The notes beneath the pieces were generated by a model that was not told where the DNA came from, did no database searches, and saw only the letters and a program-made list of their open reading frames with translations. Of a stretch of DNA of 39,846 bases, positions 13,147 to 35,187 are shown piece by piece (the first letter of the stretch is position 1; every line of letters begins with the position of its first letter). This stretch comes from Rhodoferax sp. OV413. Lineage in GTDB: Bacteria > Pseudomonadota > Gammaproteobacteria > Burkholderiales > Burkholderiaceae_C. Both the position numbers and the translations under genes were made by a program. The stretch lies in NCBI GenBank assembly GCA_945861195.1, contig CAMATS010000001.1, forward strand, positions 1-39,846. Direction: 5' to 3'.

Positions 13147-14064
13147 TCAGCTGCCAGCATCCTGTTTGGCCACCGAGCGGCTCAGTTCTCGCGGTGGGTA
13201 GGACGAAGCTTCGACACCGTGCTGTGCCAGGCCGGCCACGAACAGGGCCTCGATTTCAGGCGCAGCGCGGCGCAGTTGCCACTCGCCCAAGGGGGTGTGC
13301 AGCAGCACGCGCAGCCAGTGCAAAACCCGCACCCAGCCGGGCACCCAAATACGCCGCAGTCGGCGCTCGATGCCATCAGCAATCATGCGTGCTGCGGCGG
13401 TAGGCTCGACGTCGCGGTTCAGGATGCCTGGCATGGTGGCGCGCAAGCGTACAAAACCAGGGTGCATATTGCCCTCGGTCACCAGGGGCGTCTTCACCCA
13501 GGTGGCATGAATCAGCCCGAGCCGCACGCCATGGCCGGCCAGTTCGATGCGCCAGGCATTGCCCATGGCCTCTACCGCGGCCTTTGAGGCCGCATAGGCC
13601 GACACGCCTGGCGGATGCGCAAAGGAGGACACCGAGGCACTGATGGCGATATAACCGCGGCTACGCATGATCTCGGGCAGCGCGGCGTGAACCGTGTTGA
13701 AGACCCCAAACACATTCACCTCGATGCAGCGCTGCCATGCCAGGGGGTGTGTCCATGCGAGCGGTCCGAAAGAGGCAATACCGGCGTTGGCCCACACCAC
13801 ATCAATGCGGCCGTGCCGCAGCAGGGTGCGCGCCACCATGGCCTCGCAATCGGCTGGCAGGCTGACATCCGCAAGCACCGTGAGCAGCTTGCCGCCGAGT
13901 GCTGCTGCGGTGGCCGACAAGGCCTGCGGGTCGCAGTCGACCAACACCGGGATCGCTCCGCGTCGCTGTAACTCAGCCGCGGTGGACGCCCCGATGCCCG
14001 AGCCCGCGCCAGTGATCAAAATCACCTGCCCGCGCAGCGCCGGCAGTGCGGTGTCGCGTTGCAT
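13147..14064 (-). CDS. Short-chain dehydrogenase/reductase (classical SDR, probably NAD-preferring)
   Basis: TGAGSGIG, acidic residue at end of beta2 (VLVDCD), NAG, catalytic YAASK. Starts immediately after the DUF2269 gene stop. Confidence 0.9.
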   Translation of the reverse strand: MQRDTALPALRGQVILITGAGSGIGASTAAELQRRGAIPVLVDCDPQALSATAAALGGKLLTVLADVSLPADCEAMVARTLLRHGRIDVVWANAGIASFGPLAWTHPLAWQRCIEVNVFGVFNTVHAALPEIMRSRGYIAISASVSSFAHPPGVSAYAASKAAVEAMGNAWRIELAGHGVRLGLIHATWVKTPLVTEGNMHPGFVRLRATMPGILNRDVEPTAAARMIADGIERRLRRIWVPGWVRVLHWLRVLLHTPLGEWQLRRAAPEIEALFVAGLAQHGVEASSYPPRELSRSVAKQDAGS

Positions 14065-14523
14065 TCAGTTGGCCTTGTTGATCATCAGGTAGATGATGGG
14101 CAGCGGCACCACGGTGGCGATAGCCCCGGCAATTTGCCAGATGCGCGAGAGCCGCAAATATTCGGCGGTGACGGCCAAGTCGCGCTTGAGCAGCATGCGC
14201 TGGCGCAATTGGATGGGCACCAGCACCAGCAACCAGATCAGCCCCGAGAGGGCGAACAGACCGTAGGACCAGGCGATCCAGCTCTGGGCCGAGGCGCCGC
14301 CGTAGTTCTGCGCCATCGTCGAGCCGGTTGCCACCAGCAGAATTGCGCCGCTCAGGGTGAACAGCAGGTCAGTAATGAGCACCAGGCGGTTGCTGAACAC
14401 GATCACCTCATAGTTGCGGGTACGTTCTGCCAAAGCAGCCCAGGTGCCGCTGACCACGACATTGCCCAGAAACAGGCAGGCCGAGAGCACATGGACGATT
14501 TTTACCGTGTCATTGACGACCAT
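14065..14523 (-). CDS. DUF2269-like integral membrane protein
   Basis: K.vHvlsa.lflG N-terminus, D..FT motif, W...lvPiQ, C-terminal YLM..K; four TM helices. AAGGAG RBS just after the crtC stop. Confidence 0.75.
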   Translation of the reverse strand: MVVNDTVKIVHVLSACLFLGNVVVSGTWAALAERTRNYEVIVFSNRLVLITDLLFTLSGAILLVATGSTMAQNYGGASAQSWIAWSYGLFALSGLIWLLVLVPIQLRQRMLLKRDLAVTAEYLRLSRIWQIAGAIATVVPLPIIYLMINKAN

Positions 14524-17847: not shown

Positions 17848-18891
17848 TTAAGGCGATGTGCTGACCACCGACACTTTGGTGAGCTCCGGGTAGTCTTTGG
17901 CCATCTTGGCGCCGTACAGGGGCTTGTTGGCACCTTGGTGGCAAGTGGCGCAATTCACCTTGGCCACATCGCCAGTCTTGCCCAGCCGGTTGGGCGGGAA
18001 GGTGGACGTGAGCGGCTCCATGTAGGCGTTGTTCAAGTCACGGGCCAGCCTGATGCCATGGTAGGCGGTGACGCGCTGGGGTGGTGCCTGATCCCAAGAC
18101 TGGAAGGCCCGGGTGTTGTGGCAATAGGTGCAGTTCACGCCCAGCGACTCTGACATATGCACCATCAAACCGTATGTGAACTCGGCCTGCTTGGTGGATT
18201 GCCGGTTTGCCGCAGCGCCGGTTTTGACCAAGGCATCATTGCCGTTCACCCGGATTGGCTTGTCCTGTTTGAGGTAAGGCGTGAAGGGGTCGTAGGGCAG
18301 CGAGCTGTAGCCGACCGAATTGGATGCCCGGTTTTGCCCGGCATCATCGCCCAGTGAGCCGCCGCTGTGGCGGCTCGCAGTGGGCGCGACCCAGATTTCT
18401 TTGGGCACCGGGTTACCCCGGTGGCAGGTGTAGCAGGTCACGCCAGTTTCGCCGACATGGGGTTTCCAATCCGCATTGACATGCTGTGTCATTTGGATCA
18501 TGCGCCGGGCGACGACCTTGGTGTACAGCGAGTCGTCGGCAAAATTAGCGACGTTATGGCAATAGGCGCAACCTTCTTTGGGCGAAACCCACTGGGTGAT
18601 GGACACCATGTGCCGGGTGAATTCGCCCACGCTGAGGTCGCCCAGCACTTTGACGTTTTGGTACACCTCTTTGGCGCGCGGCCCATCGGCTGAGGCCGGC
18701 TCTGCTGCAGCCGGTGCCCGGTGCAGCGCGGCCTGGCTGGCCAATATCCGGGGGTTGTAGTTTTGCTCCATGCCGGTGCCACGGTAGCCGTGTTGCACAG
18801 AGACAATCGGCGGACGCTCGCCGCAGCCGTACAAGACGGCGGCAGATAGCGCTAGTAGCAGGAGGCGTGAGGTACGAGCCCATGCGTTCAT
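17848..18891 (-). CDS. pufC: Reaction-centre-bound tetraheme cytochrome c subunit
   Basis: Lipoprotein-type signal (LYGC-GERPP) and four CXXCH motifs (CAYCH, CYTCH, CTYCH, CATCH). True start is ATG 18891, overlapping the pufM stop. Confidence 0.97.
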
Positions 18892-19865
18892 GGCTTGACT
18901 CCCAGAAGAGCGGGGTCCACGACCACCGGGAAAACCGCCGGATAGGACGGCACAACGTGGTGCTTGACAGACCACAAATACCAGTTGTCGACCACCGTGC
19001 CGGTCAGCAGGATGCCAATGCCGCCCACCAGGGGACACAACACCGCGAACCACCAGGCCCAGCGGTGGACTGACTCCATCGTGGCATTGAAACCCATGGT
19101 CCAGCGCCAGAAGAGTGCAGCGCGCTCAGAGGCCGTGCCGCGGTCGACGATTTGCTCAATCTCGCGCTCCCCGCCGTAGCGGCTGACCGCCAAAATGGTT
19201 GCGCCATGCATGGCAAACAGCAGCACTGAGCCGTACAAGAACACGATGGACAGGGCGTGGAAGGGGTTGTAGAACAGGTTGCCGTAGCGCAGCGAGAGCG
19301 CCGATACCCAATCGAGGTGGGGGAAGATGCCAAAGGGCACTGCCTCTGACCAGCTGCCCATCAGGACCGGCCGGAAAAAACCGCACACCAGGTACAGCCA
19401 GATGGCAGCAGCAAAGGCCCAGGCCACATGGGTACCCAGGCCAAGTTGTCTGGCACGCCGGTAGATGCGGGTCCACCACAAAAGTATGGATATGGTCAGC
19501 AAAAAGCCGGTAATCAGCCACCAGCCACCCTGGTTGAGCGGCGGAATGGACAGGCCAAAGCTAGGTGGCGGTGGCTCAAGGGCCAGCCAGAACAATTGAC
19601 GAACCAATTGCAGCGGATTCCAGTCCACCATGGCCAGCATATTGAAGCCGATGATGTTGAAGGCCAGGGTGCCAAACACCAGCGAGGCCACCCCCAGGCC
19701 GCCCAGGTAAATCGGTCCGATTTGTGCATTGCCCAGCCGGCCGGCCAGGTGCCAGAACCAGGGTGTGCCGATGCGTTCGCTGTCACCTTTGGGCAGCGCA
19801 ATGCCAGCCGAGGCCGGCCCGGTGGGCTGTACCGTTGTAAAGAGATTTTGATATTCAGTCATCAT
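18888..19865 (-). CDS. pufM: Reaction centre M subunit
   Basis: [35 protein letters not shown] and [11 protein letters not shown] motifs. Confidence 0.99.
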
Positions 19866-19880: not shown

Positions 19881-20708
19881 TCAATGGCCCCAGATGGGCA
19901 TGTTCAGCCACCAGCCCCACCATTCGGGCCAACCACGGGTCCAGAACGGACCACTGATCACGATGCATAGCGCGGCGAACCACACTGCTGCAAGCGCCAG
20001 GAACAGGCCCAGGCGGTGGATACCCAGTGTGCCGACGGAATAGCCGATGACATCACGGAAAAAAGTGTCTTCGTGCTCGGGCGTTTTGACCACCTCACCC
20101 TTTTTGGGATTGGTCGCCGAGAGCACCAGACCGCCGTGCATGGACAGCGCCAGCACGGTGGCAAAGAACAGGCTTGCCGCGATCATGTGCGCCGGGTTGT
20201 AGTGAAAGTGAAGGTACTGGTAAGCGACATTGCTGACCCAGTCCAGGTGGCTGTAAATGCCATAGGGAAAGGCGTGACCCCAGGCGCCCATCAAGACCGG
20301 GCGAATGACCTGCAGCGTGAAATAGGCAAAGATGGCAAAGCCAAACGCGACTGGCACATGCAAGCCCATGCCCAGTTTGCGAGCGATTTCGACCTCGCGC
20401 AACGCCCAGGAGACAAAGGCGCCTAGCGCGCAAACCGTGATGATTTGCCACAGGCCGCCCTGCATCATGGGTGCAAAACGCAGCCCGTAAGACAGGTCTG
20501 GCGGCGCTATGCTGATTTGCCAGAGGTTCCAGGTGGGGCCGGATGCAGCCCCCCACAAAATCATGGCTGTTCCGACCAGGGTGAAGAAGGCGGTTGTGAC
20601 GCCAAAAAAACCGACATAAAAGGGCCCAGCCCAAAAGTCGAACAGATCTCCCCCGATCAGGGTGCCGCCGCGAACGCGGTATTTTCTTTCGAAACTTAAC
20701 ATCGCCAT
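19881..20708 (-). CDS. pufL: Reaction centre L subunit
   Basis: [35 protein letters not shown] and GIHRLG motifs. GAGGAG RBS. Confidence 0.99.
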
Positions 20709-20833: not shown

Positions 20834-21025
20834 TTACTTTGCAGGCGGAAGAGCTGCATTCTGTGCAGCTTTTGCAGCCTTAACCGTGTCCGGGTGCCAA
20901 GTATTGATGTTGTAACGATCGCCACTGATGTGAATCAGGTGGATGCTCGTCGACACAAATGCAATCAGCAGTCCGGTCAGAATGATCGCCTTGCGGGGAT
21001 CAACAATTCGCCAATAACGCCACAT
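20834..21025 (-). CDS. pufA: Core antenna (LH1) alpha polypeptide, divergent
   Basis: MWRYWRIVDPRK N-terminus, TM helix with central His (IHLI), S.DRYN, position directly before pufL, AAGGA RBS. Confidence 0.85.
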   Translation of the reverse strand: MWRYWRIVDPRKAIILTGLLIAFVSTSIHLIHISGDRYNINTWHPDTVKAAKAAQNAALPPAK

Positions 21026-21039
21026 AGTTTTTCCTTAAG

Positions 21040-21264
21040 TTAACTCAGTTGAGATATCACGGTGTAGACGGCAGACTTGACGCTGTCGAGCATGGATCCC
21101 GTACCCTCTGCCCCTGGTAGCCAGGTGCGCCAGTTCATATAGAACAGTTGCCCGATGACCGCCAACAACATGAAGACACAAAAAATCACGACGAAAATCG
21201 TGCCAAACCCATCGAGATGGCTTTGGGGGATTGACGTGTCCGATTGAGCGTGCGAATAAGCCAT
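21040..21264 (-). CDS. 74-aa single-TM protein between pufB and pufA; LH-beta-like but lacking the BChl-ligand His
   Basis: GGAG RBS, one TM helix, WRTWLPG motif resembling the beta WRPWLPG motif. Confidence 0.75.
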   Translation of the reverse strand: MAYSHAQSDTSIPQSHLDGFGTIFVVIFCVFMLLAVIGQLFYMNWRTWLPGAEGTGSMLDSVKSAVYTVISQLS

Positions 21265-21288: not shown

Positions 21289-21432
21289 CTAAAACCAGGG
21301 ACGCCAGATCCACACCAGACTATGCGCAACAAACGCACCCACACCCCACAGCAGGTAACCCTGCACGTAGTACGTGTGAAATTCCTGGCATTCCGCGTCG
21401 GTTAGCCCCGACGGGTTCATACTTTCAGCCAT
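21289..21432 (-). CDS. pufB: Core antenna (LH1) beta polypeptide, 47 aa (absent from the supplied ORF track)
   Basis: Manual translation: [47 protein letters not shown]. Has SGLT..E..EFH and AH.LVW.WRPWF motifs and a GAGGTG RBS. Confidence 0.95.
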
Positions 21433-25654: not shown

Positions 25655-25704
25655 TCGGTTTTGCTCCATTGAGGGGTCATTGAGAGAGTAGCCATTGCTT
25701 GCAT
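25651..25704 (-). pseudogene. 17-aa micro-ORF (MQAMATLSMTPQWSKTE*) in the bchC slot; possible collapsed bchC remnant
   Basis: Lies between the PpsR promoter and bchX. Its TGA overlaps the bchX ATG (ATGA), and its W-S codons supply the GGAG RBS, as the bchC C-terminus commonly does. Too short to prove homology. Confidence 0.3.
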
Positions 25705-25707
25705 GAG

Positions 25708-25751
25708 TGTATAGTTACATTGACACTTTTGGTTGTCAATAAAAAGTTACG
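25708..25751 (-). promoter_or_regulatory. Tandem PpsR/CrtJ operators with sigma70 -35, driving bchXYZ-puf
   Basis: TGT-N12-ACA at 25708-25725 (tgtatagttacattgaca) and TGT-N12-ACG at 25734-25751, 8 bp apart. Minus-strand TTGACA at 25739-25734. Confidence 0.85.
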
Positions 25752-25765
25752 GATAATCGCCATTC

Positions 25766-27991: not shown

Positions 27992-28178
27992 CATCGTCAG
28001 TCAAGTCAAGCGAGTTTTTGATTTTTTTGAAATTTGTTTGTAAAGCTCGCATTCCTGCAGGCGCAGAGCTGCTGCGATGGCGTGATATAAGAAAAGCAAT
28101 GACGACACCAAACCAGCAAACCGTGGCGCAACCGTGGCGCCGCAGCCAGCCCTCAGGCAGCTCAGGAGACATGCTGGC

Positions 28179-28793
28179 ATGCTGCTGCTGAAAAATCTGG
28201 CTTGCATGCGCAGCGGGCGGCGCCTGTTTCAGGGGCTGAGCTGCGAGGTGCCGGCTGGGCAATTGCTGCGGGTGCAGGGCGCCAATGGCGCTGGCAAGAC
28301 CAGCCTGCTGCGGATTATTTGTGGTTTGCTCGAGCCCAGCGAGGGCCAGGCGAGCTGGTGTGGGCAAAGTATTTCGACATTGCAGGAGGACCTTGGCCGC
28401 CAGATGATCTATCTGGGACACGCGGCGGCCCTGAAGGACGACCTCTCCCCCCTGGAAAATCTGCAGGCTGCCAGTGCCTTGGGCGGGCAGGCGCTGAGCG
28501 CTGTTCAGGCGCGCGCGGCGCTGGCAGCGGCTGGTTTGCGTGGTTTTGACAGCACACCGGTGCGCCGCTTGTCGCAGGGGCAGCGCCGCCGCAGCGCGCT
28601 GGCACGACTGGTGCACGGCCACTATGCGGCGCTGTGGGTGCTCGATGAGCCTTTCAATGCCCTTGACACCGGGGCCACCGCCTGGTTGGCTGAATTGGTC
28701 AAGGCCCGCGTTCATGGCGGTGGCGTGGTGGTCTTGACCAGCCACCAGGACGTTGCCGTCGATGTCGCGCAGCAGCAGGTGCTAGCGCTGTGA
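28179..28793 (+). CDS. ccmA: Heme exporter ATP-binding protein CcmA
   Basis: Walker A GANGAGKT, YLGH..ALK, LSQGQRRR, WVLDEPF, LTSHQ. AGGAG before ATG 28179. Confidence 0.93.
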   Translation: MLLLKNLACMRSGRRLFQGLSCEVPAGQLLRVQGANGAGKTSLLRIICGLLEPSEGQASWCGQSISTLQEDLGRQMIYLGHAAALKDDLSPLENLQAASALGGQALSAVQARAALAAAGLRGFDSTPVRRLSQGQRRRSALARLVHGHYAALWVLDEPFNALDTGATAWLAELVKARVHGGGVVVLTSHQDVAVDVAQQQVLAL

Positions 28794-29506
28794 GCGCTAT
28801 GACTCACCCCAAGCAGCCGGCGGCGCTGCCGGTGGGTTTGCTGGCGGCAGTGCAGTGCATTTTTGTCCGCGACCTGCGCCTGGCCCTGCGCCGGCGCGCC
28901 GATAGCCTGTCGGCGATGTTGTTTTTCGTCATGGTTGTGAGTTTGTTTCCGCTGGGTGTGGGGCCAGAGCCTGGTCTGTTGCGCAGCATGGCGCCGGGCG
29001 TGGTCTGGGTTGCCGCGCTGCTGTCGTCAATGCTCTCGCTGAGCCGGCTTTTTGCTGACGACCACCAAGACGGGACCCTGGAGCAATTGCTTTTGGGCGC
29101 CCATCCGCTGGCTTTTTTGGTGCTGGGTAAAATCGCCGCCCACTGGATTGGCTCAGGATTGATGCTGACCCTCATCGCCCCGCTGCTGGCACTGCAGTTT
29201 GATTTGGCTGCCGATGCCTGCGGGGTTTTGGTTTTGTCTTTGCTGCTCGGCACCCCGGTGCTGAGCCTGATTGGCGCCATTGGTGCGGCCTTGACTGTGG
29301 GGCTCAGGGGTGGGAGTGTTTTGTTGTCTTTGTTGGTGCTGCCGCTGGCGGTCCCGGTGTTGGTGTTCGGTGCCGGCGCAGTACAGGCGTATCAGGCCGG
29401 GCTCGGGTTTTCCGCCCATTTTTCGCTGCTTGGTGCTGGTTTGTTGGTGAGTCTGGTGGCCGCGCCTTGGGTGGTTGCGGCCGGGCTCAGGATTGCTTTG
29501 GAGTAG
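28790..29506 (+). CDS. ccmB: Heme exporter permease CcmB
   Basis: RDLRLA.RR, LFPLGVGP, F.DD..DGTLEQL and LPL.VPVLVFG motifs. Confidence 0.93.
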   Translation: MSAMTHPKQPAALPVGLLAAVQCIFVRDLRLALRRRADSLSAMLFFVMVVSLFPLGVGPEPGLLRSMAPGVVWVAALLSSMLSLSRLFADDHQDGTLEQLLLGAHPLAFLVLGKIAAHWIGSGLMLTLIAPLLALQFDLAADACGVLVLSLLLGTPVLSLIGAIGAALTVGLRGGSVLLSLLVLPLAVPVLVFGAGAVQAYQAGLGFSAHFSLLGAGLLVSLVAAPWVVAAGLRIALE

Positions 29507-29557
29507 GTACCCCCAGATGGCCGACTTTGATAGGAAATTTGTCAGGAGGCACCCGGT

Positions 29558-30304
29558 ATGCAACTCGGTGCGGTGAACTGGTTTTATTTTGCTGCCCCAC
29601 AGCGCTTTTATCGGTTGTCAGGGCAGTTGTTGCCCTGGTGCTTCGTGCTGGCAAGCCTGCTTGCGGTCTGGGGCTTGTATATCGGCTTGTGGCTGGCGCC
29701 CACCGATGCGCAACAGGGGGAGGCTTACCGAATCATTTTTGTGCATGTGCCAACCGCCTGGATGTCGATGGTGGTTTATTTGGCCATGGCAGGCTGGGCC
29801 GGCGTGGGTCTGGTGTTTAACTCGCGCCTGGCTTCAATGATGGCCTGCGCACTCGCGCCAACCGGAGCCCTGATGACCTTTCTTGCCCTTTGGACCGGCG
29901 CACTTTGGGGCAAGCCCACTTGGGGCGCCTGGTGGGTGTGGGATGCCCGCCTGACCTCGGAGTTGGTGCTGCTGTTTCTCTATATCGGCTTTATGTCGCT
30001 GCATGCCGCCATTGACGATCCGCGCCGCGCCGACCGTGCCGCCGGCCTGCTGGCTCTGGTGGGCGTAGTCAATGTGCCAATCATCTATTTTTCAGTGAAA
30101 TGGTGGAACACCCTGCACCAAGGAGCCTCGGTCAGCTTGACCAAGTCGCCCAGCATGGCCAGCACCATGCTGCTGGGCATGCTGGTGATGGCGCTGGCCT
30201 GCTGGGCCTACTGCATTGCAGCGGCCCTGCTGCGGGTGCGAAGCATCATTTTGGAGCGTGAGGCCCACACGGCCTGGGTGCAAGATCTGGCGAGGTCTGC
30301 ATGA
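29558..30304 (+). CDS. ccmC: Heme exporter CcmC
   Basis: YRIIFVHVP.AW, WWD domain WGKPTWGAWWVWDARLT, WWNTLHQ. Confidence 0.96.
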   Translation: MQLGAVNWFYFAAPQRFYRLSGQLLPWCFVLASLLAVWGLYIGLWLAPTDAQQGEAYRIIFVHVPTAWMSMVVYLAMAGWAGVGLVFNSRLASMMACALAPTGALMTFLALWTGALWGKPTWGAWWVWDARLTSELVLLFLYIGFMSLHAAIDDPRRADRAAGLLALVGVVNVPIIYFSVKWWNTLHQGASVSLTKSPSMASTMLLGMLVMALACWAYCIAAALLRVRSIILEREAHTAWVQDLARSA

Positions 30305-30486
30305 GCAGTGCCGGCTGGTCTGATTTTTGGCACATGGGCGGCTATGCCCTGTATGTGTGGGGCTCCCTGGGCATGTGTGCTGCAACCCTGCTGATTGAAG
30401 TGCTGTGGCTTGCCCACAGGCAGCGTAAGCTGATTGAGCTGATTTCTGCTGGACCCGATTCTGATGCGGGAGAATCCAGCACATGA
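30301..30486 (+). CDS. ccmD: Heme exporter protein CcmD
   Basis: [11 protein letters not shown] motif, single TM, between ccmC and ccmE with ATGA overlaps. Confidence 0.88.
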
Positions 30487-30908
30487 AACCTAGAAACAAG
30501 CGCGCCCTGGCCATTGTTGCGGCGGTGGCAGCCTTGGGCGGTGCGACCATGCTGGTGCTCAATGCCTTCAACAGCAACCTGGTTTTCTTTTTCAGTCCGA
30601 CCCAGGTTCTGGCCAACGAGGCGCCGCGCGAGCGTAGTTTTCGCATTGGTGGCTTGGTCCAGGAAGGTAGCCTGCAACGCGAGGCGCAGGGCCTGACGAT
30701 CCGCTTTGTCGTCACCGACCTGGCCAAGACCGTGCCGGTCACCTACACCGGACTGCTGCCAGATCTTTTCAAAGAGGGCAAGGGCGTTGTGGCTCAGGGA
30801 AGGCTGGACGCCGATGGCGTCTTTCGGGCCGAGCAGGTGCTGGCCAAACACGACGAAAACTACATGCCGCCGGAAGCCGCCGCAGCACTGAAAAAGGCCA
30901 AGCCATGA
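30483..30908 (+). CDS. ccmE: Heme chaperone CcmE
   Basis: [23 protein letters not shown], heme-binding LAKHDENY. Confidence 0.96.
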
Positions 30909-32929
30909 TTGCTGAATTGGGTCATTTTTCTCTCATCATTGCCTTGCTCATGGCGCTGGTTCAGGGGGTGCTGCCCCTGGCTGGGGCGCACACCGGGCGC
31001 AGTGCCTGGACCGCTTTGGCCCGGCCTGCGGCGCGCGGGCAATTCTTGTTTGTGTTGCTGGCCTATGCCTGCCTCACCCAGGTGTTCATTGCCAATGATT
31101 TCTCGGTGTTGCTGGCGGCCCGGCATTCCAACTCCAGCCTGCCACTGGTTTACCGGATCACGGCAGTCTGGGGCAACCACGAGGGCTCGATCTTGCTGTG
31201 GTCCCTGATCTTGGCCGGTTGGACCCTCGCCGTCTCGATTTTTTCGCGCCAGCTCGATGACACCATGTTGGCCCGGGTGCTGGGGGTTATGGGGCTGGTC
31301 AGCTGCGGCTTCCTGTTGTTCACCCTGTTCACTTCGAACCCGTTTGAGCGCCTGCTGCCCGCTGCCCCGGACGGGCAGGACCTCAACCCCCTGCTGCAGG
31401 ACCCCGGCATGGTGATCCATCCGCCCATGCTGTACATGGGCTATGTGGGCTTTGTGGTGGCCTTTGCATTTGCCATTGCCGCCCTGCTGGCGGGCCGGCT
31501 CGACACTGCATGGGCGCGCTGGTCGCGGCCCTGGACCACCGTGGCCTGGTGTTTTTTGACGGCCGGCATTGCACTGGGCAGCTTTTGGGCTTACTACGAA
31601 CTGGGCTGGGGCGGCTGGTGGTTCTGGGACCCAGTAGAAAACGCCTCCTTCATGCCCTGGCTGGTCGGCACTGCCTTGATCCACTCGCTGGCAGTCACTG
31701 AGAAGCGCGGCGGCTTCAAAATGTGGACCGCTTTGCTGGCCATATTGGCCTTCTCTTTGTCTTTGCTGGGGACTTTCATTGTGCGCTCGGGGGTTTTGAG
31801 CTCGGTCCATGCTTTTGCATCAGACCCGGCGCGCGGCGTGTTCATTCTGGGCTTTTTGTCAGTGGTGGTTGGCGGCTCTCTGGCTCTGTTTGCCTGGCGT
31901 GCGCCCCGGGTGGGCCTGGGGGGCAGTTTTGCGCCGGTGTCGCGTGAATCAATGTTGCTAGCCAACAATGTGCTGCTGGTGGTGGCGGCTGCCGCGGTGC
32001 TTTTGGGCACGCTTTATCCCCTGGTTATTGATGCGCTGGGCATGGGCAAGCTGTCGGTCGGGCCGCCGTATTTTTCGGCTGTTTTTGTCCCGCTCATTGC
32101 GCCCGCCCTGTTTTTGATGGGGGTCGGTCCGATGACGCGTTGGCGCGAGGCCAGTGCCATCGATTTAGCCCGGCGCCTGCGCTGGGCGGCGGCGGTCAGC
32201 CTGCTCAGTGCCCTGATCGCGCCATTTTTTCTGGGCCATTGGACGCCCATGATCGGGCTCGGTTTGCTGCTCGGGGCGTGGGTTGCGAGCACCGCTTTGC
32301 TGAACCTGTTCAGCCGGCTGCGCGAGCATCCGGCACCCGGTTGGGCTGCCCGCTTGGCGGCGCAACCGGGCAGCTACTACGGCATGCTGCTGGCCCATTT
32401 TGGCGTCTCGGTGTTCATTGTCGGCGTCACTGTGGTGAGCGGCTTTTCCAGCGAGAGTGATGTGCGCATGGAGCCCGGCGATGTGGCGCAGGTGGGCGGC
32501 TACAGCTTTGAGCTCAAGGCTGTCAACCCGGTCACCGGGCCCAATTACACCGCCCTGCGCGCCACGGTGGCGGTGTCTATCGACGGCCAGGATCTGGGCC
32601 GGCTCGAGCCGGAGCGCCGTCTGTACCAGGTCAGCCGCATGGCCATGACCGAAGTGGCCATTGACCGCGGACTGCGGCGTGACCTGTATGTGGCCCTCGG
32701 CGAGCCGGTCGGACCGACGGCCTGGAGCGTACGGCTGCACCACAAACCCCTGGTCAACTGGATCTGGGGCGGCTGTGTGCTGATGGCCCTGGGTGGTTTG
32801 CTGGCGGTGATGGACAGGCGCTACCGCACCAGGCGAGTGGCTGCCACCAAGCCCGCTGCGGCCCGAGCCGGCGAGGCTGCTGCGCCGGGCGAGTTGCCGC
32901 TGCTGGTTGGCCGGGGCCAGGTGCCGTGA
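30905..32929 (+). CDS. ccmF: Cytochrome c heme lyase CcmF
   Basis: [41 protein letters not shown] and SVHAF motifs. Confidence 0.97.
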
Positions 32930-33450
32930 AAAGGTATTTGTTGCCACTGCTGGCTTTTCTGGTGTTGGTGGGCTTTTTGGCAGTCGGTTTGCGGCTCAAC
33001 CCGCGCGAGGTGCCCTCGCCACTGGTGAACCGCCCAACCCCAGAGTTCCGCCTGCCCACGCTGGCCGACCCGGCCCAGCAGTTGGCGCCCAAAGACCTGC
33101 TCGGCAAGGTCTGGCTGCTCAATGTCTGGGCCTCCTGGTGCGTGGCTTGCCGGCTTGAACACCCGGTTCTGGTGGACTTCGCCCGTGCCGGCCTGGTGCC
33201 GGTGTATGGCCTCAATTACAAGGACAAGCGTCCCGATGCGCTGGCTTGGCTGGAAAAATTTGGCAACCCCTACCAGCAGTCCTTGCAAGACAGCGACGGC
33301 CTGGCCGGCATTGAACTGGGCGTTTACGGCGTGCCAGAAACCTTTGTGATTGACCGTGCCGGCGTGATTCGCTTCAAGCACATCGGGCCGCTGACCCCGG
33401 AGGTGTTGCGTGACACCATCTTGCCCCTGGTCGGAAAACTCGGTGCCTAA
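32926..33450 (+). CDS. ccmG: Thiol:disulfide interchange protein CcmG/DsbE
   Basis: NVWASWCVACRLEHP thioredoxin motif, GVYGVPETF, N-terminal anchor. Confidence 0.94.
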   Translation: MKRYLLPLLAFLVLVGFLAVGLRLNPREVPSPLVNRPTPEFRLPTLADPAQQLAPKDLLGKVWLLNVWASWCVACRLEHPVLVDFARAGLVPVYGLNYKDKRPDALAWLEKFGNPYQQSLQDSDGLAGIELGVYGVPETFVIDRAGVIRFKHIGPLTPEVLRDTILPLVGKLGA

Positions 33451-33937
33451 GACCGGCTGCCTTGGCTTGCTGGGCGGCGCGTTGCTGCTCGGCTTGGCGC
33501 TGGGCTTGCCGTTGTCCGCCGGGGCCGGCGAGGCCAAGCCGATGGCCAGTGACCCGGCGCTGGAAGCCCGGGTGATGGTGATTGCCGAAGAGTTGCGCTG
33601 CCTGGTGTGTCAAAACGAGACCATTGCCGCTTCAAATGCCGACCTCGCAGTCGACCTTCGGGGGCAGATTCGACAGAAGCTTTCGCAGGGGCAGAGCAGC
33701 CAGCAGATTCTTGATTTCATGGTGGCGCGCTATGGCGATTTCGTGCTCTACCGCCCGCCCCTCAAAGCCAGTACGGTGTTGTTGTGGGTGGGGCCCTTTG
33801 CCCTGCTCCTGCTGGCGGCGGGGGTTTTGATGGTCAATATCCGCCGGCATCGCCAGCATGCTGCCCAGCGCGAGCTTGACCCGGCACAACGCCTGCGCGC
33901 CCGCCAACTGCTAGACCAGACAGGTGGTCCGCCATGA
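33443..33937 (+). CDS. ccmH: Cytochrome c biogenesis protein CcmH
   Basis: LRCLVCQNE..A.SNA.LA.DLR and RYGDFVLY.PP motifs. Start uncertain; GTG 33443 chosen. Confidence 0.92.
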   Translation: MPKTGCLGLLGGALLLGLALGLPLSAGAGEAKPMASDPALEARVMVIAEELRCLVCQNETIAASNADLAVDLRGQIRQKLSQGQSSQQILDFMVARYGDFVLYRPPLKASTVLLWVGPFALLLLAAGVLMVNIRRHRQHAAQRELDPAQRLRARQLLDQTGGPP

Positions 33938-35187
33938 CCCTGCTCGGGCTGCTGGGTCTGGCCCTGCTGTTGCTGGCGCTGGCTATGTTGCTGCCGGCCC
34001 TGTTGCGCAGCCCCCGGCCGGCCCCGACCCAAGCCGGCTCGCTCGCGCCTGAGCCCAACCTGGCCCTGCTGCGCGAGCAAAAGGCCCAGCTTGACGAACA
34101 GCTTGGCAGTGGCGCGATCGGGCCGGCCCAGTATGCGCTGGCCAGCAGTGAGCTCGAGCAGCGGGTGCTTGACGAGGCAGCTCCGGTAACCGCCCCGCCG
34201 AGCCACGCCGGGGGGGACCGCCGCAGCGCCCTGCTGTTGGGCCTGGTGCTGCCGCTGCTGGCGCTGGCCTTGTACGGCTGGTTGGGTCAGCCGCAGGCGG
34301 TTCTGCCGCCAGAACTGCAGGCAGGCGCGGCGGCTGAGCCCACCCAGGCCCAGGTTGAGGCCATGGTGGCGCAACTTGCCAAGCGGCTCGACGAGCTGCC
34401 AAGCGGGCAGCCGCCCGACCCCCAGGCCTGGGAGATGCTGGCCCGCGCCTATGCCTCTTTGCAGCGTTTTGAGGAGTCCAACCGGGCCTATATCCGGGCC
34501 GGTGAACTCGCGCCGCGCAATGCCCAATTGCTGGCTGACCATGCCGATGTGCTGGCCATGGTGCAGGGCCAGAGTGCTGCCGGTGAGCCCACCCGCCTGA
34601 TCGAGCGGGCGCTGGCGATTGACCCGAAAAACCTCAAAGCCCTGGCGCTAGCCGGGACCGCCGCGCTGCAGCGGCAAGACCCGGGGGCAGCGGTGGCTTT
34701 TTGGTCCCGCGCGCAGGCCTTGGCGCCGCCTGACAGCGAGTTCGCGGCCGGGCTGGCGAGTAGCCTGGATGTGGCGCGCGCGCAGTTGCTGGCCGCAGCC
34801 CCCAAGGGCTCCCGGCCTGCCGCGAGCGCGCCAGCAGCGCCGGCCTTGGCCATTAGCGGCACGGTCAGCTTGGCGCCGGCGCTGGCGGCGCAACTGGCAG
34901 CCAGCGACACCGTGTTTGTGTTTGCCCGTGCGGTGCAGGGCTCGCGCATGCCCCTGGCCATCCTCAAATTCAAAGCCAGTGAGTTGCCCCGTGCATTCAC
35001 GCTCGATGACAGCAGCGCCATGTCCCCAGATCTCAAGCTCTCGGGCGCCGGGCAGGTGATGCTGGTGGCGCGGGTGTCGCGCTCGGGCAACGCCATGCCG
35101 CAAGCGGGCGACCTGACTGGCGAGCTGGGGCCGGTCAAACCCGGCTCCCCCGGGCTGCGTTTGGTTATCAACAGCGTTCAGCCCTGA
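33934..35187 (+). CDS. ccmI: Cytochrome c biogenesis TPR protein CcmI/CycH
   Basis: Two N-terminal TM segments, LY..LG.P, TPR-like region, C-terminal VFVFARA...MPLA...F.LDDS.AM domain. Confidence 0.88.
   Translation: MTLLGLLGLALLLLALAMLLPALLRSPRPAPTQAGSLAPEPNLALLREQKAQLDEQLGSGAIGPAQYALASSELEQRVLDEAAPVTAPPSHAGGDRRSALLLGLVLPLLALALYGWLGQPQAVLPPELQAGAAAEPTQAQVEAMVAQLAKRLDELPSGQPPDPQAWEMLARAYASLQRFEESNRAYIRAGELAPRNAQLLADHADVLAMVQGQSAAGEPTRLIERALAIDPKNLKALALAGTAALQRQDPGAAVAFWSRAQALAPPDSEFAAGLASSLDVARAQLLAAAPKGSRPAASAPAAPALAISGTVSLAPALAAQLAASDTVFVFARAVQGSRMPLAILKFKASELPRAFTLDDSSAMSPDLKLSGAGQVMLVARVSRSGNAMPQAGDLTGELGPVKPGSPGLRLVINSVQP

What the first reader, a model, noticed from the sequence alone, without database searches (positions are those of the whole stretch)
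20834..21025. LH1 alpha lacks the acetyl-binding Trp+11, gains His+3 and an LH2-like Trp+14
Seen: H0-L-I-H-I-S-G-D-R-Y-N-I-N-T-W, versus the consensus H0-F-I-L-L-S-T-x-R-F-N-W. Position +11 is Ile, Trp is shifted to +14, there is a second His at +3, and the TM helix is unusually polar (VSTSIH). Known: alpha-Trp+11 H-bonds the C3-acetyl of BChl a and red-shifts B875, while LH2 alphas use +13/+14. Inference: a spectrally shifted core antenna, an extra pigment or metal site, or adaptation to a pigment with no C3-acetyl, matching the loss of bchC.
Basis: partly seen in the sequence, partly recalled or inferred. Interest (0 to 1): 0.8.

Follow-up and report, generated by a model that had tools for sequence, protein, structure and literature searches.

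The report
Remodelled core antenna of lake bacteria
This gene is a conserved, remodelled version of the core light-harvesting alpha protein shared by a lineage of lake bacteria, in which a likely three-residue insertion displaces the pigment-binding tryptophan, so the antenna is predicted to grip ordinary bacteriochlorophyll a differently rather than to use a new chlorophyll.

Summary
The residues are as described (Ile+11, Trp+14, His+3, polar helix) and are not chance: 113 homologues share the pattern (Trp+14 in 108 of 112). The gene marks one branch of the pufL tree of freshwater Burkholderiales.

bchC is not lost: an intact copy lies on another contig, and relatives keep it in the usual slot (47 of 51). 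His+3 is a minority state (Gln in 93 of 112).

C-terminal spacing indicates a three-residue insertion that moved the canonical Trp to +14. It is followed by His-Pro-Asp, echoing the Trp-His-x-Asp of Thiorhodovibrio 970.

The variant comes with a co-changed beta chain, fixed L/M substitutions, no detectable LH2 or second pufA (12 of 12 genomes), and two extra genes among the crt genes (an SDR and DUF2269; orthologues in 12 of 12 variant genomes, 0 of 34 canonical). All of this is one origin, so it does not show function.

Best reading: a normal-BChl a LH1 with re-wired hydrogen bonds and likely a modest spectral shift, direction untested. The scan had earlier noted the neighbouring His-less ORF2 on other DNA; two look-ups (sequence, words) found no note on this alpha.

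The parts
20834..21025 (-). pufA, variant LH1 alpha polypeptide (63 aa)
   Evidence: directly upstream of pufL
20945..20953 (-). Ser-4, Thr-3, Ser-2 (canonical Ala, Ala/Ile/Leu, Met); Ser-4 matches the LH2 alpha-Ser27 position that binds the 13(1)-keto group
   Evidence: Ser-4 in 45 of 46 unique variant alphas, Ala in 28 of 28 canonical; PMC8775250 passages
20939..20941 (-). His0, the BChl Mg ligand (His29)
   Evidence: His in 111 of 112 anchored homologues
20930..20932 (-). position +3: His here, Gln in most homologues, Leu in canonical alphas
20900..20908 (-). Ile-Asn-Thr at +11..+13, the inferred three-residue insertion
   Evidence: gap in HMMER alignment to 7xxf_A; spacing analysis
20888..20899 (-). 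Trp+14-His-Pro-Asp motif
   Evidence: Trp 108, His 98, Pro 96, Asp 88 of 112; His, Pro and Asp each 49 of 50 in the locus set, which was seeded partly with this peptide
21289..21432 (-). pufB, LH1 beta with co-varying residues (Tyr-11, Trp-8, Gly-5, Phe-3, Ser+1); His0 and Trp+9 kept
   Evidence: (NF040862 67.8 bits, cut-off 61)
21040..21264 (-). His-less beta paralogue (Gln at position 0), equivalent of Rubrivivax ORF2; also found beside canonical alphas, so not specific
   Evidence: PMC12817894 passages
19881..20708 (-). pufL, with clade-fixed changes (Gln133, Trp243 in window numbering)
18888..19862 (-). pufM, with clade-fixed changes (e.g. Cys/Val160 for Leu, Leu/Met86 for Phe)
13147..14064 (-). 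SDR oxidoreductase among the crt genes; orthologue found only in variant-alpha genomes among those searched
14065..14523 (-). DUF2269 helical membrane protein among the crt genes; close orthologue tracks the variant alpha
25670..25765 (.). crtF-bchX gap with no bchC; the gene is on contig C140 instead

Best explanation
This is the only LH1 alpha gene detected in a lineage of freshwater Burkholderiales photosystems, and a likely three-residue loop insertion has moved its acetyl-binding tryptophan from +11 to +14, where it is predicted still to hydrogen-bond normal bacteriochlorophyll a. Shown: sequence pattern, conservation, purifying selection, single origin on the pufL tree, a complete BChl a acetyl pathway in the genes, a co-changed beta chain, and no LH2 genes detected. 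Inferred: the loop bulges or forms a short turn as in LH2 alphas so that Trp+14 (perhaps helped by His+15 and Gln/His+3) donates to a C3-acetyl; Ser-4 binds the 13(1)-keto group; large-for-small swaps between alpha (Phe-7 to Ala, Phe-9 to Leu/Met/Ile) and beta (Val-3 to Phe, Phe-8 to Trp, Tyr-11) repack the ring. Predicted outcome: a functional BChl a ring absorbing within about 15 nm of 870 nm, more likely on the blue side.
For: The Trp-to-Gln-Asn-Ala spacing is 12 in 42 of 59 variant alphas (range 12-17) and 11-14 in 23 canonical ones. His0-to-motif is 26-31 versus 22-25, with no overlap (1 variant and 9 canonical rows lacked the motif). HMMER also gaps 7xxf_A by three before the Trp. Trp+14 is kept in 108 of 112 homologues. 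A displaced Trp has precedent: Tch. tepidum has it at +10 after a deletion (PMC5604489 passage), and Trv. 970 Trp47 still binds the acetyl (PMC7532537 passages). In LH2, alpha-Tyr45 binds the alpha-BChl acetyl and Ser27 the keto group (PMC8775250 passages; these are +14 and -4 with His31 as 0, recalled). bchF, bchC, bchXYZ, bchG and bchP are present. Gln+3 with a Trp shifted to +12 also occurs in two other gammaproteobacterial genomes that lack the SDR and DUF2269 genes, which ties +3 to the shifted Trp rather than to those genes.
Against: The AlphaFold2 model is weak at the C-terminus (pLDDT about 62-67) and has no pigments. A +14 Trp may not reach the acetyl in the LH1 geometry. The C-terminal spacing rests on a low-complexity tail. 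The independence of the second Gln+3 lineage is not shown (AU p 0.114). The SDR, DUF2269 and reaction-centre changes are not explained by this reading.
Confidence: 0.5

Rival explanations
1. The alpha-side acetyl hydrogen bond is simply lost (Trp+11 replaced by Ile, Trp+14 structural), giving a natural blue-shifted core antenna near 850-860 nm that partly stands in for the missing LH2.
For: Removing this bond in Rba. sphaeroides shifts LH1 to 853 nm (PMC10214105 passage). Natural 854-862 nm LH1s exist in aerobic phototrophs (PMC12654162 passage). LH2 genes were not found in 12 of 12 variant genomes but were in 26 of 34 canonical ones.
Against: The spacing argues that the Trp was moved rather than lost, and it is nearly invariant. 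8 of 34 canonical genomes also show no LH2.
Confidence: 0.2
2. The whole core complex is co-adapted to a modified pigment, most likely a more polar carotenoid, made or delivered by the SDR and DUF2269 proteins that sit among the crt genes only in this clade.
For: SDR orthologue in 12 of 12 variant and 0 of 34 canonical genomes; in a 400-genome order draw the only hits above 38% identity were the 4 variant genomes (5 candidates scored per genome). DUF2269: 12 of 12 versus one 33% hit with a stop. All 11 SDR-seeded metagenome loci at 57% or more lie among photosynthesis genes, and 2 of 2 that reach pufA have the variant. The SDR keeps its catalytic Tyr-x-x-x-Lys. Fixed M-subunit changes at 86 and 160 are near the carotenoid pocket (recalled). 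Rhodopinal-forming enzymes are unknown (PMC10604819 passage).
Against: There is one origin only, so co-occurrence may be hitch-hiking. The SDR was not found in 4 variant genomes whose loci keep DUF2269 (completeness not given). DUF2269 homologues at 29-54% occur in 47 other genomes of the draw with unrelated neighbours. No substrate evidence exists.
Confidence: 0.15
3. The Trp-His-Pro-Asp motif forms a calcium site and a double acetyl hydrogen bond like Thiorhodovibrio 970, giving a red-shifted, ion-stabilised LH1.
For: In Trv. 970, Trp47 and His48 both bind the acetyl and Asp50 binds Ca2+, and His48 was described as absent from other LH1 alphas (PMC7532537 passages). The variant has the same Trp, His(+1), Asp(+3) spacing; canonical alphas have Leu and Gly there.
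Against: The known Ca site of Tch. tepidum goes with a deletion (Trp+10), not an insertion, and uses Asn+14. His and Asp are lost in divergent members (98 and 88 of 112, alignment). The locus set was seeded with this peptide.
Confidence: 0.1
4. One reading: adaptation to a pigment without a C3-acetyl because bchC is lost, or an extra pigment or metal bound at His+3.
For: bchC is absent from the crtF-bchX gap in this window. His+3 lies on roughly the His0 face of the helix (helical wheel).
Against: bchC is intact elsewhere in this genome and at the same locus (96% nucleotide identity) in a 100%-complete sister genome. It is in the usual slot in 47 of 51 loci and elsewhere in the other 4. Beta Trp+9 is kept in all 54 unique variant betas, although it was part of the search pattern. 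+3 is Gln in 93 of 112.
Confidence: 0.02

Closest known systems
Canonical LH1 alpha (PufA; NCBIfam NF040861, Pfam PF00556), e.g. PDB 7xxf_A and Burkholderiales pufA
   Same: Position before pufL, length, N-terminal W-x-x-W-x-x-x-D-P motif, His0 in the same register, Arg+8, aromatic +9, Asn+10, and a Gln-Asn-Ala-x-x-Pro tail.
   Different: Trp at +14 not +11; Ser/Thr at -4..-2; Gln/His+3; loss of Phe-7, Phe-9 and Gln-12; scores below both family cut-offs (26.9 < 35; 21.3 < 23).
LH2 alpha (PucA) of Rba. sphaeroides
   Same: Aromatic acetyl donor at +14 and Ser at -4 (PMC8775250 passages; register recalled).
   Different: Encoded in puf, not puc; no aromatic at +13; the beta has no Arg-10 for B800; the best PDB hits are LH1 alphas.
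Ca2+-bound LH1 of Thiorhodovibrio strain 970 and Tch. tepidum
   Same: Trp displaced from +11 by an indel (Tch. tepidum); Trp-His-x-Asp spacing (Trv. 970).
   Different: Insertion (+14) rather than deletion (+10); Thr instead of Asn after the Asp; freshwater Burkholderiales hosts; no spectral data.
alpha-Trp+11-to-Phe mutant of Rba. sphaeroides LH1 (B853)
   Same: No Trp at +11.
   Different: Engineered single change with no replacement Trp; 853 nm absorption (PMC10214105 passage).
ORF2 of the Rubrivivax gelatinosus puf operon
   Same: His-less small ORF upstream of pufA, function unknown (PMC12817894 passage); the window's 21040-21264 gene is its positional equivalent.
   Different: Not specific to the variant alpha: present beside many canonical alphas.

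Membership tests
LH1 alpha (PufA) | Encoded in the puf operon directly before pufL | tested here: met
LH1 alpha (PufA) | Single helix with His0 BChl ligand in canonical register from the Asp-Pro motif | tested here: met
LH1 alpha (PufA) | Trp at +11 | tested here: not met
   Ile at +11; Trp at +14 after an inferred insertion
LH1 alpha (PufA) | Curated HMM cut-off (NF040861 35 bits; PF00556 23 bits) | tested here: inconclusive
   This protein scores 26.9 and 21.3 (below); two homologues score 36.1 and 35.1 on NF040861
LH1 alpha (PufA) | Forms the ring round the reaction centre, absorbing about 870-880 nm | not testable with these tools
   Indirect only: no other alpha detected in 12 of 12 genomes
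LH2 alpha (PucA) | puc operon location and B800 site (beta Arg-10) | tested here: not met
   puf location; beta -10 is Leu/Ile/Val/Thr
LH2 alpha (PucA) | Aromatic donors at both +13 and +14 | tested here: not met
   +13 is Thr/Ser, only +14 is aromatic
Ca2+-binding LH1 (Tch. tepidum / Trv. 970) | Trp followed by Asp at Trp+3 (and His at Trp+1 in Trv. 970) | tested here: met
   lost in divergent members
Ca2+-binding LH1 (Tch. tepidum / Trv. 970) | Loop deletion placing Trp at +10, Asn+14 ligand (Tch. tepidum) | tested here: not met
   Insertion, Trp at +14, Thr after Asp
Ca2+-binding LH1 (Tch. tepidum / Trv. 970) | Calcium-dependent red shift | not testable with these tools
   needs spectroscopy
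Acetyl-less (bchC/bchF-lacking) photosystem | Absence of bchC or bchF from the genome | tested here: not met

The most novel reading that the evidence does not exclude
A widespread freshwater lineage, seen here only in metagenome-assembled genomes, runs a distinct LH2-less photosystem. Alpha, beta, L and M were remodelled together around a new pigment made by a dedicated SDR/DUF2269 pair, and/or around a Trp-His-x-Asp calcium site that arose convergently with Thiorhodovibrio 970, giving lake bacteria an absorption band not yet recorded.
Probability: 0.22. Interest if true: 0.8.

Novelty: new variant of a known kind. Interest (0 to 1): 0.55.

Why it matters
Trp+11 is treated as conserved in all LH1 alphas and accounts for about 20 nm of red shift. 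A whole clade of lake photoheterotrophs has displaced it, together with coordinated changes in beta and the reaction centre and no detectable LH2. That gives a natural test of how hydrogen bonds tune LH1, easily done by expressing pufBA in an LH-null laboratory host. It also flags two uncharacterised genes in the crt cluster as candidate pigment-modifying or assembly factors. The alpha scores below Pfam and NCBIfam cut-offs and is often annotated 'hypothetical', so these antennas are easily overlooked.

Tried and rejected
bchC loss: rejected. Contamination of the off-cluster bchC: unlikely, as the same locus is in a sister genome at 96% identity and GC is 61.6% against a contig mean of 61.5%. 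Geranylgeranyl-BChl through bchP loss: bchP is present in this genome and 5 of 5 tested.

The His-less ORF2 as the partner explaining the variant: it also occurs with canonical alphas. An ESM Atlas link of ORF2 to PufQ rests on 16% of one cluster and was not confirmed by Pfam. My recalled lead that the SDR is CruO-like was wrong: CruO is a CrtI-family protein (PMC10604819).

DUF2269 fold search gave no match at E <= 0.001. The alpha model's fold search was uninformative. A complex prediction of DUF2269 with L, M and alpha returned no verdict and is not used either way. The SDR has no PDB sequence match at E <= 1e-30 and no plasmid match at that level.

The second Gln+3 lineage does not group with the variant clade in the best pufL tree, but a joint clade is not rejected. 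A C-terminal fragment search of the PDB found nothing. The three-way DNA alignment had a one-base third row and was used only as a pairwise look. RNA-run contigs cover the SDR/DUF2269 region only patchily, which says nothing on expression. PMC5734016 (Limnohabitans spectra) was not held.

Full report
Observation. The ORF at 20834-21025 (-) encodes 63 residues and lies in the order pufB, a 74-aa ORF, pufA, pufL, pufM, pufC. The best solved relatives are LH1 alphas. It scores just under the Pfam and NCBIfam cut-offs.

It is a conserved family. A homologue search gave 113 proteins. Among 112 rows that could be anchored (query included; 2 dropped), +11 is Ile 94 or Leu 12, +14 is Trp 108 and -4 is Ser 108. 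Position +3 is Gln 93, His 7, Phe 7, Met 4, Leu 1, so the second His is a local state of a usually-Gln site. pN/pS of the window against 80 other unique coding sequences is 0.15. Their titles are metagenome-assembled or uncultured Burkholderiales, labelled Rhodoferax, Polaromonas, Rubrivivax, Hylemonella, Aquabacterium, Hydrogenophaga, Limnohabitans and others; none is titled as an isolate genome. 20 of 24 listed public runs hold the puf stretch, 18 of them lake or freshwater and 6 of them RNA runs from 4 studies. RNA-run contigs span pufA at about 99% identity, though no silent control was laid.

bchC is not lost. This genome has bchC on contig C140 (397 bits, cut-off 291) and bchF on C29. 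The BchC has no stop and matches 91 of 92 columns invariant in 21 others; the same locus is 96% identical in a 100%-complete sister genome. Of 51 variant loci spanning crtF and bchX, a script counted 45 with bchC between them. Two more (L047, L064) have a copy in the slot plus a second copy that took the best hit, giving 47 of 51. The remaining 4 genomes all have a bchC above the cut-off elsewhere. bchG and bchP are present. Beta Trp+9 and the L-subunit His equivalent to L168 (numbering recalled) are kept. The acetyl-less-pigment idea therefore fails.

Moved, not lost. Variant and canonical alphas align without gaps up to Asn+10. The distance from the C-terminal Trp to the shared Gln-Asn/Met-Ala motif is 12 in 42 of 59 variant alphas (range 12-17) and 11-14 in 23 canonical ones. 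From His0 it is 26-31 against 22-25 (1 variant and 9 canonical rows had no motif). The simplest reading is a three-residue insertion before the canonical Trp. An AlphaFold2 model puts a short helix at +11..+14, but at low confidence. After the Trp come His, Pro and Asp (98, 96 and 88 of 112).

One clade with co-changes. All 126 alphas recovered from loci fell into either the variant or the canonical class (93 and 33); the classes were defined by the Trp position. On a pufL tree of 55 variant and 31 canonical rows the variants are one side of a branch (SH-aLRT 99, quick method), and remain so with other Gammaproteobacteria added. The host labels are mixed across this branch, which suggests but does not show horizontal spread. 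The locus and handle sets overlap and are not independent. The beta chain co-varies: Tyr-11 in 54 of 54 and Ser+1 in 54 of 54 unique variant betas versus none of 28 canonical, with Gly-5, Phe-3 and Trp-8 common. L and M carry near-fixed differences, for example L Gln133 (82 of 84) for Val, L Trp243 for Phe/Leu, M Cys/Val160 for Leu (Leu in 32 of 32 canonical) and M Leu/Met86 for Phe. In 46 pufL-positive genomes, all 12 variant genomes (8 of them at least 94% complete) gave exactly two LHC hits, pufB and this pufA; 26 of 34 canonical genomes gave four. A very divergent LH2 could be missed, since this alpha itself scores near the limit.

Two extra genes. In a comparison of cluster regions from five variant genomes (open frames compared by BLAST and judged by eye), the only conserved genes I could not assign to the standard set were an SDR (13147-14064) and a DUF2269 membrane protein (14065-14523) among the crt genes. 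The SDR orthologue is in 12 of 12 variant and 0 of 34 canonical genomes. In a 400-genome order draw the only hits above 38% were the 4 variant genomes. DUF2269 is in 12 of 12, with one 33% hit among the canonical set; its four best hits in the draw are the same 4 genomes, but 47 others carry homologues at 29-54%. Against a strict link: among 30 variant loci containing crtB, DUF2269 was in 30 and the SDR in 26, and the SDR was not found in those 4 genomes. Two other gammaproteobacterial genomes have Gln+3 and Trp+12 without either gene; whether they arose independently is not shown (AU p 0.114). All co-occurrence here reflects one origin.

Mechanism. From passages read: removing the alpha-Trp43 bond shifts Rba. 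sphaeroides LH1 to 853 nm (PMC10214105; PMC11440610). LH2 alpha-Tyr45 binds the alpha-BChl acetyl and Ser27 the 13(1)-keto group, with no absorption effect of Ser27Ala (PMC8775250). Tch. tepidum has its Trp at +10 after a deletion, with Asp+13 and Asn+14 binding Ca2+ (PMC5604489). In Trv. 970, Trp47 and His48 both bind the acetyl and Asp50 binds Ca2+ (PMC7532537). I infer that the displaced Trp most likely still binds an acetyl of normal BChl a in a repacked pocket (0.5). The rivals are outright loss of the bond (0.2), co-adaptation to a modified pigment (0.15), a Trv.-like calcium/double bond (0.1) and the bchC reading (0.02). None of these has been measured.

Side finding. The 74-aa ORF is a beta paralogue (best PDB hit 7xxf_B, E 1.7e-9) with Gln at the His position in 108 of 112 rows. 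It also lies beside many canonical alphas, and corresponds by position to Rvi. gelatinosus ORF2, described as His-less and of unknown function (PMC12817894 passage). The scan had noted it twice before.

Novelty. I found no description of this alpha in searches of the held library (and with 0 papers holding 4 of 6 terms). The library lacks most subscription papers, no supplements were read, and PMC5734016 was not held. L. planktonicus is tabulated with LH1 at 865 nm plus 813/799 nm bands (PMC12654162), but I could not check which alpha it carries. For all cited papers I saw keyword passages only.

Noticed in passing
window 21040-21264 (-): His-less LH1 beta paralogue (ORF2-type). Genomes with a single long pufB (L154, L157) carry the same C-terminal extension on a His-bearing beta, suggesting ORF2 arose by pufB duplication, one copy keeping the His and the other the tail.
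   Followed up: partly
window 13147-14523 (-): SDR and DUF2269 genes among crt genes that track the variant alpha; function unknown.
   Followed up: partly
G000:C140:3478-4413; L047, L064, L220-L224: An off-cluster bchC lineage (SH-aLRT 96) coexists with or replaces the in-cluster copy in several variant genomes.
   Followed up: yes
L247, L249 (G873, G788); proteins P0436, P0440, P0443, P0469, P0487: Other gammaproteobacterial LH1 alphas with Asn-1 and Gln+3; in G873, G788, P0436, P0440 and P0469 the Trp is at +12. The P0487 cluster keeps Trp+11 and has two C-terminal Cys residues.
   Followed up: partly
window 18888-19862 and 19881-20708 (-): Clade-fixed reaction-centre substitutions, notably M160 Leu to Cys/Val and L Gln133, next to positions known (recalled) to tune the special pair potential.
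   Followed up: partly
window 28134-35187 (+): A cytochrome c maturation (ccm-like) gene run inserted between crtE and bchO inside the photosynthesis cluster; seen at the same place in some related loci.
   Followed up: no
L016, L017: Variant-alpha clusters where pufM is followed by crtA with no pufC hit.
   Followed up: no
P0441, P0456, P0481: Further unrelated LH alphas that seem to lack Trp+11 among the 50%-cluster representatives; some may be frameshifted fragments.
   Followed up: no
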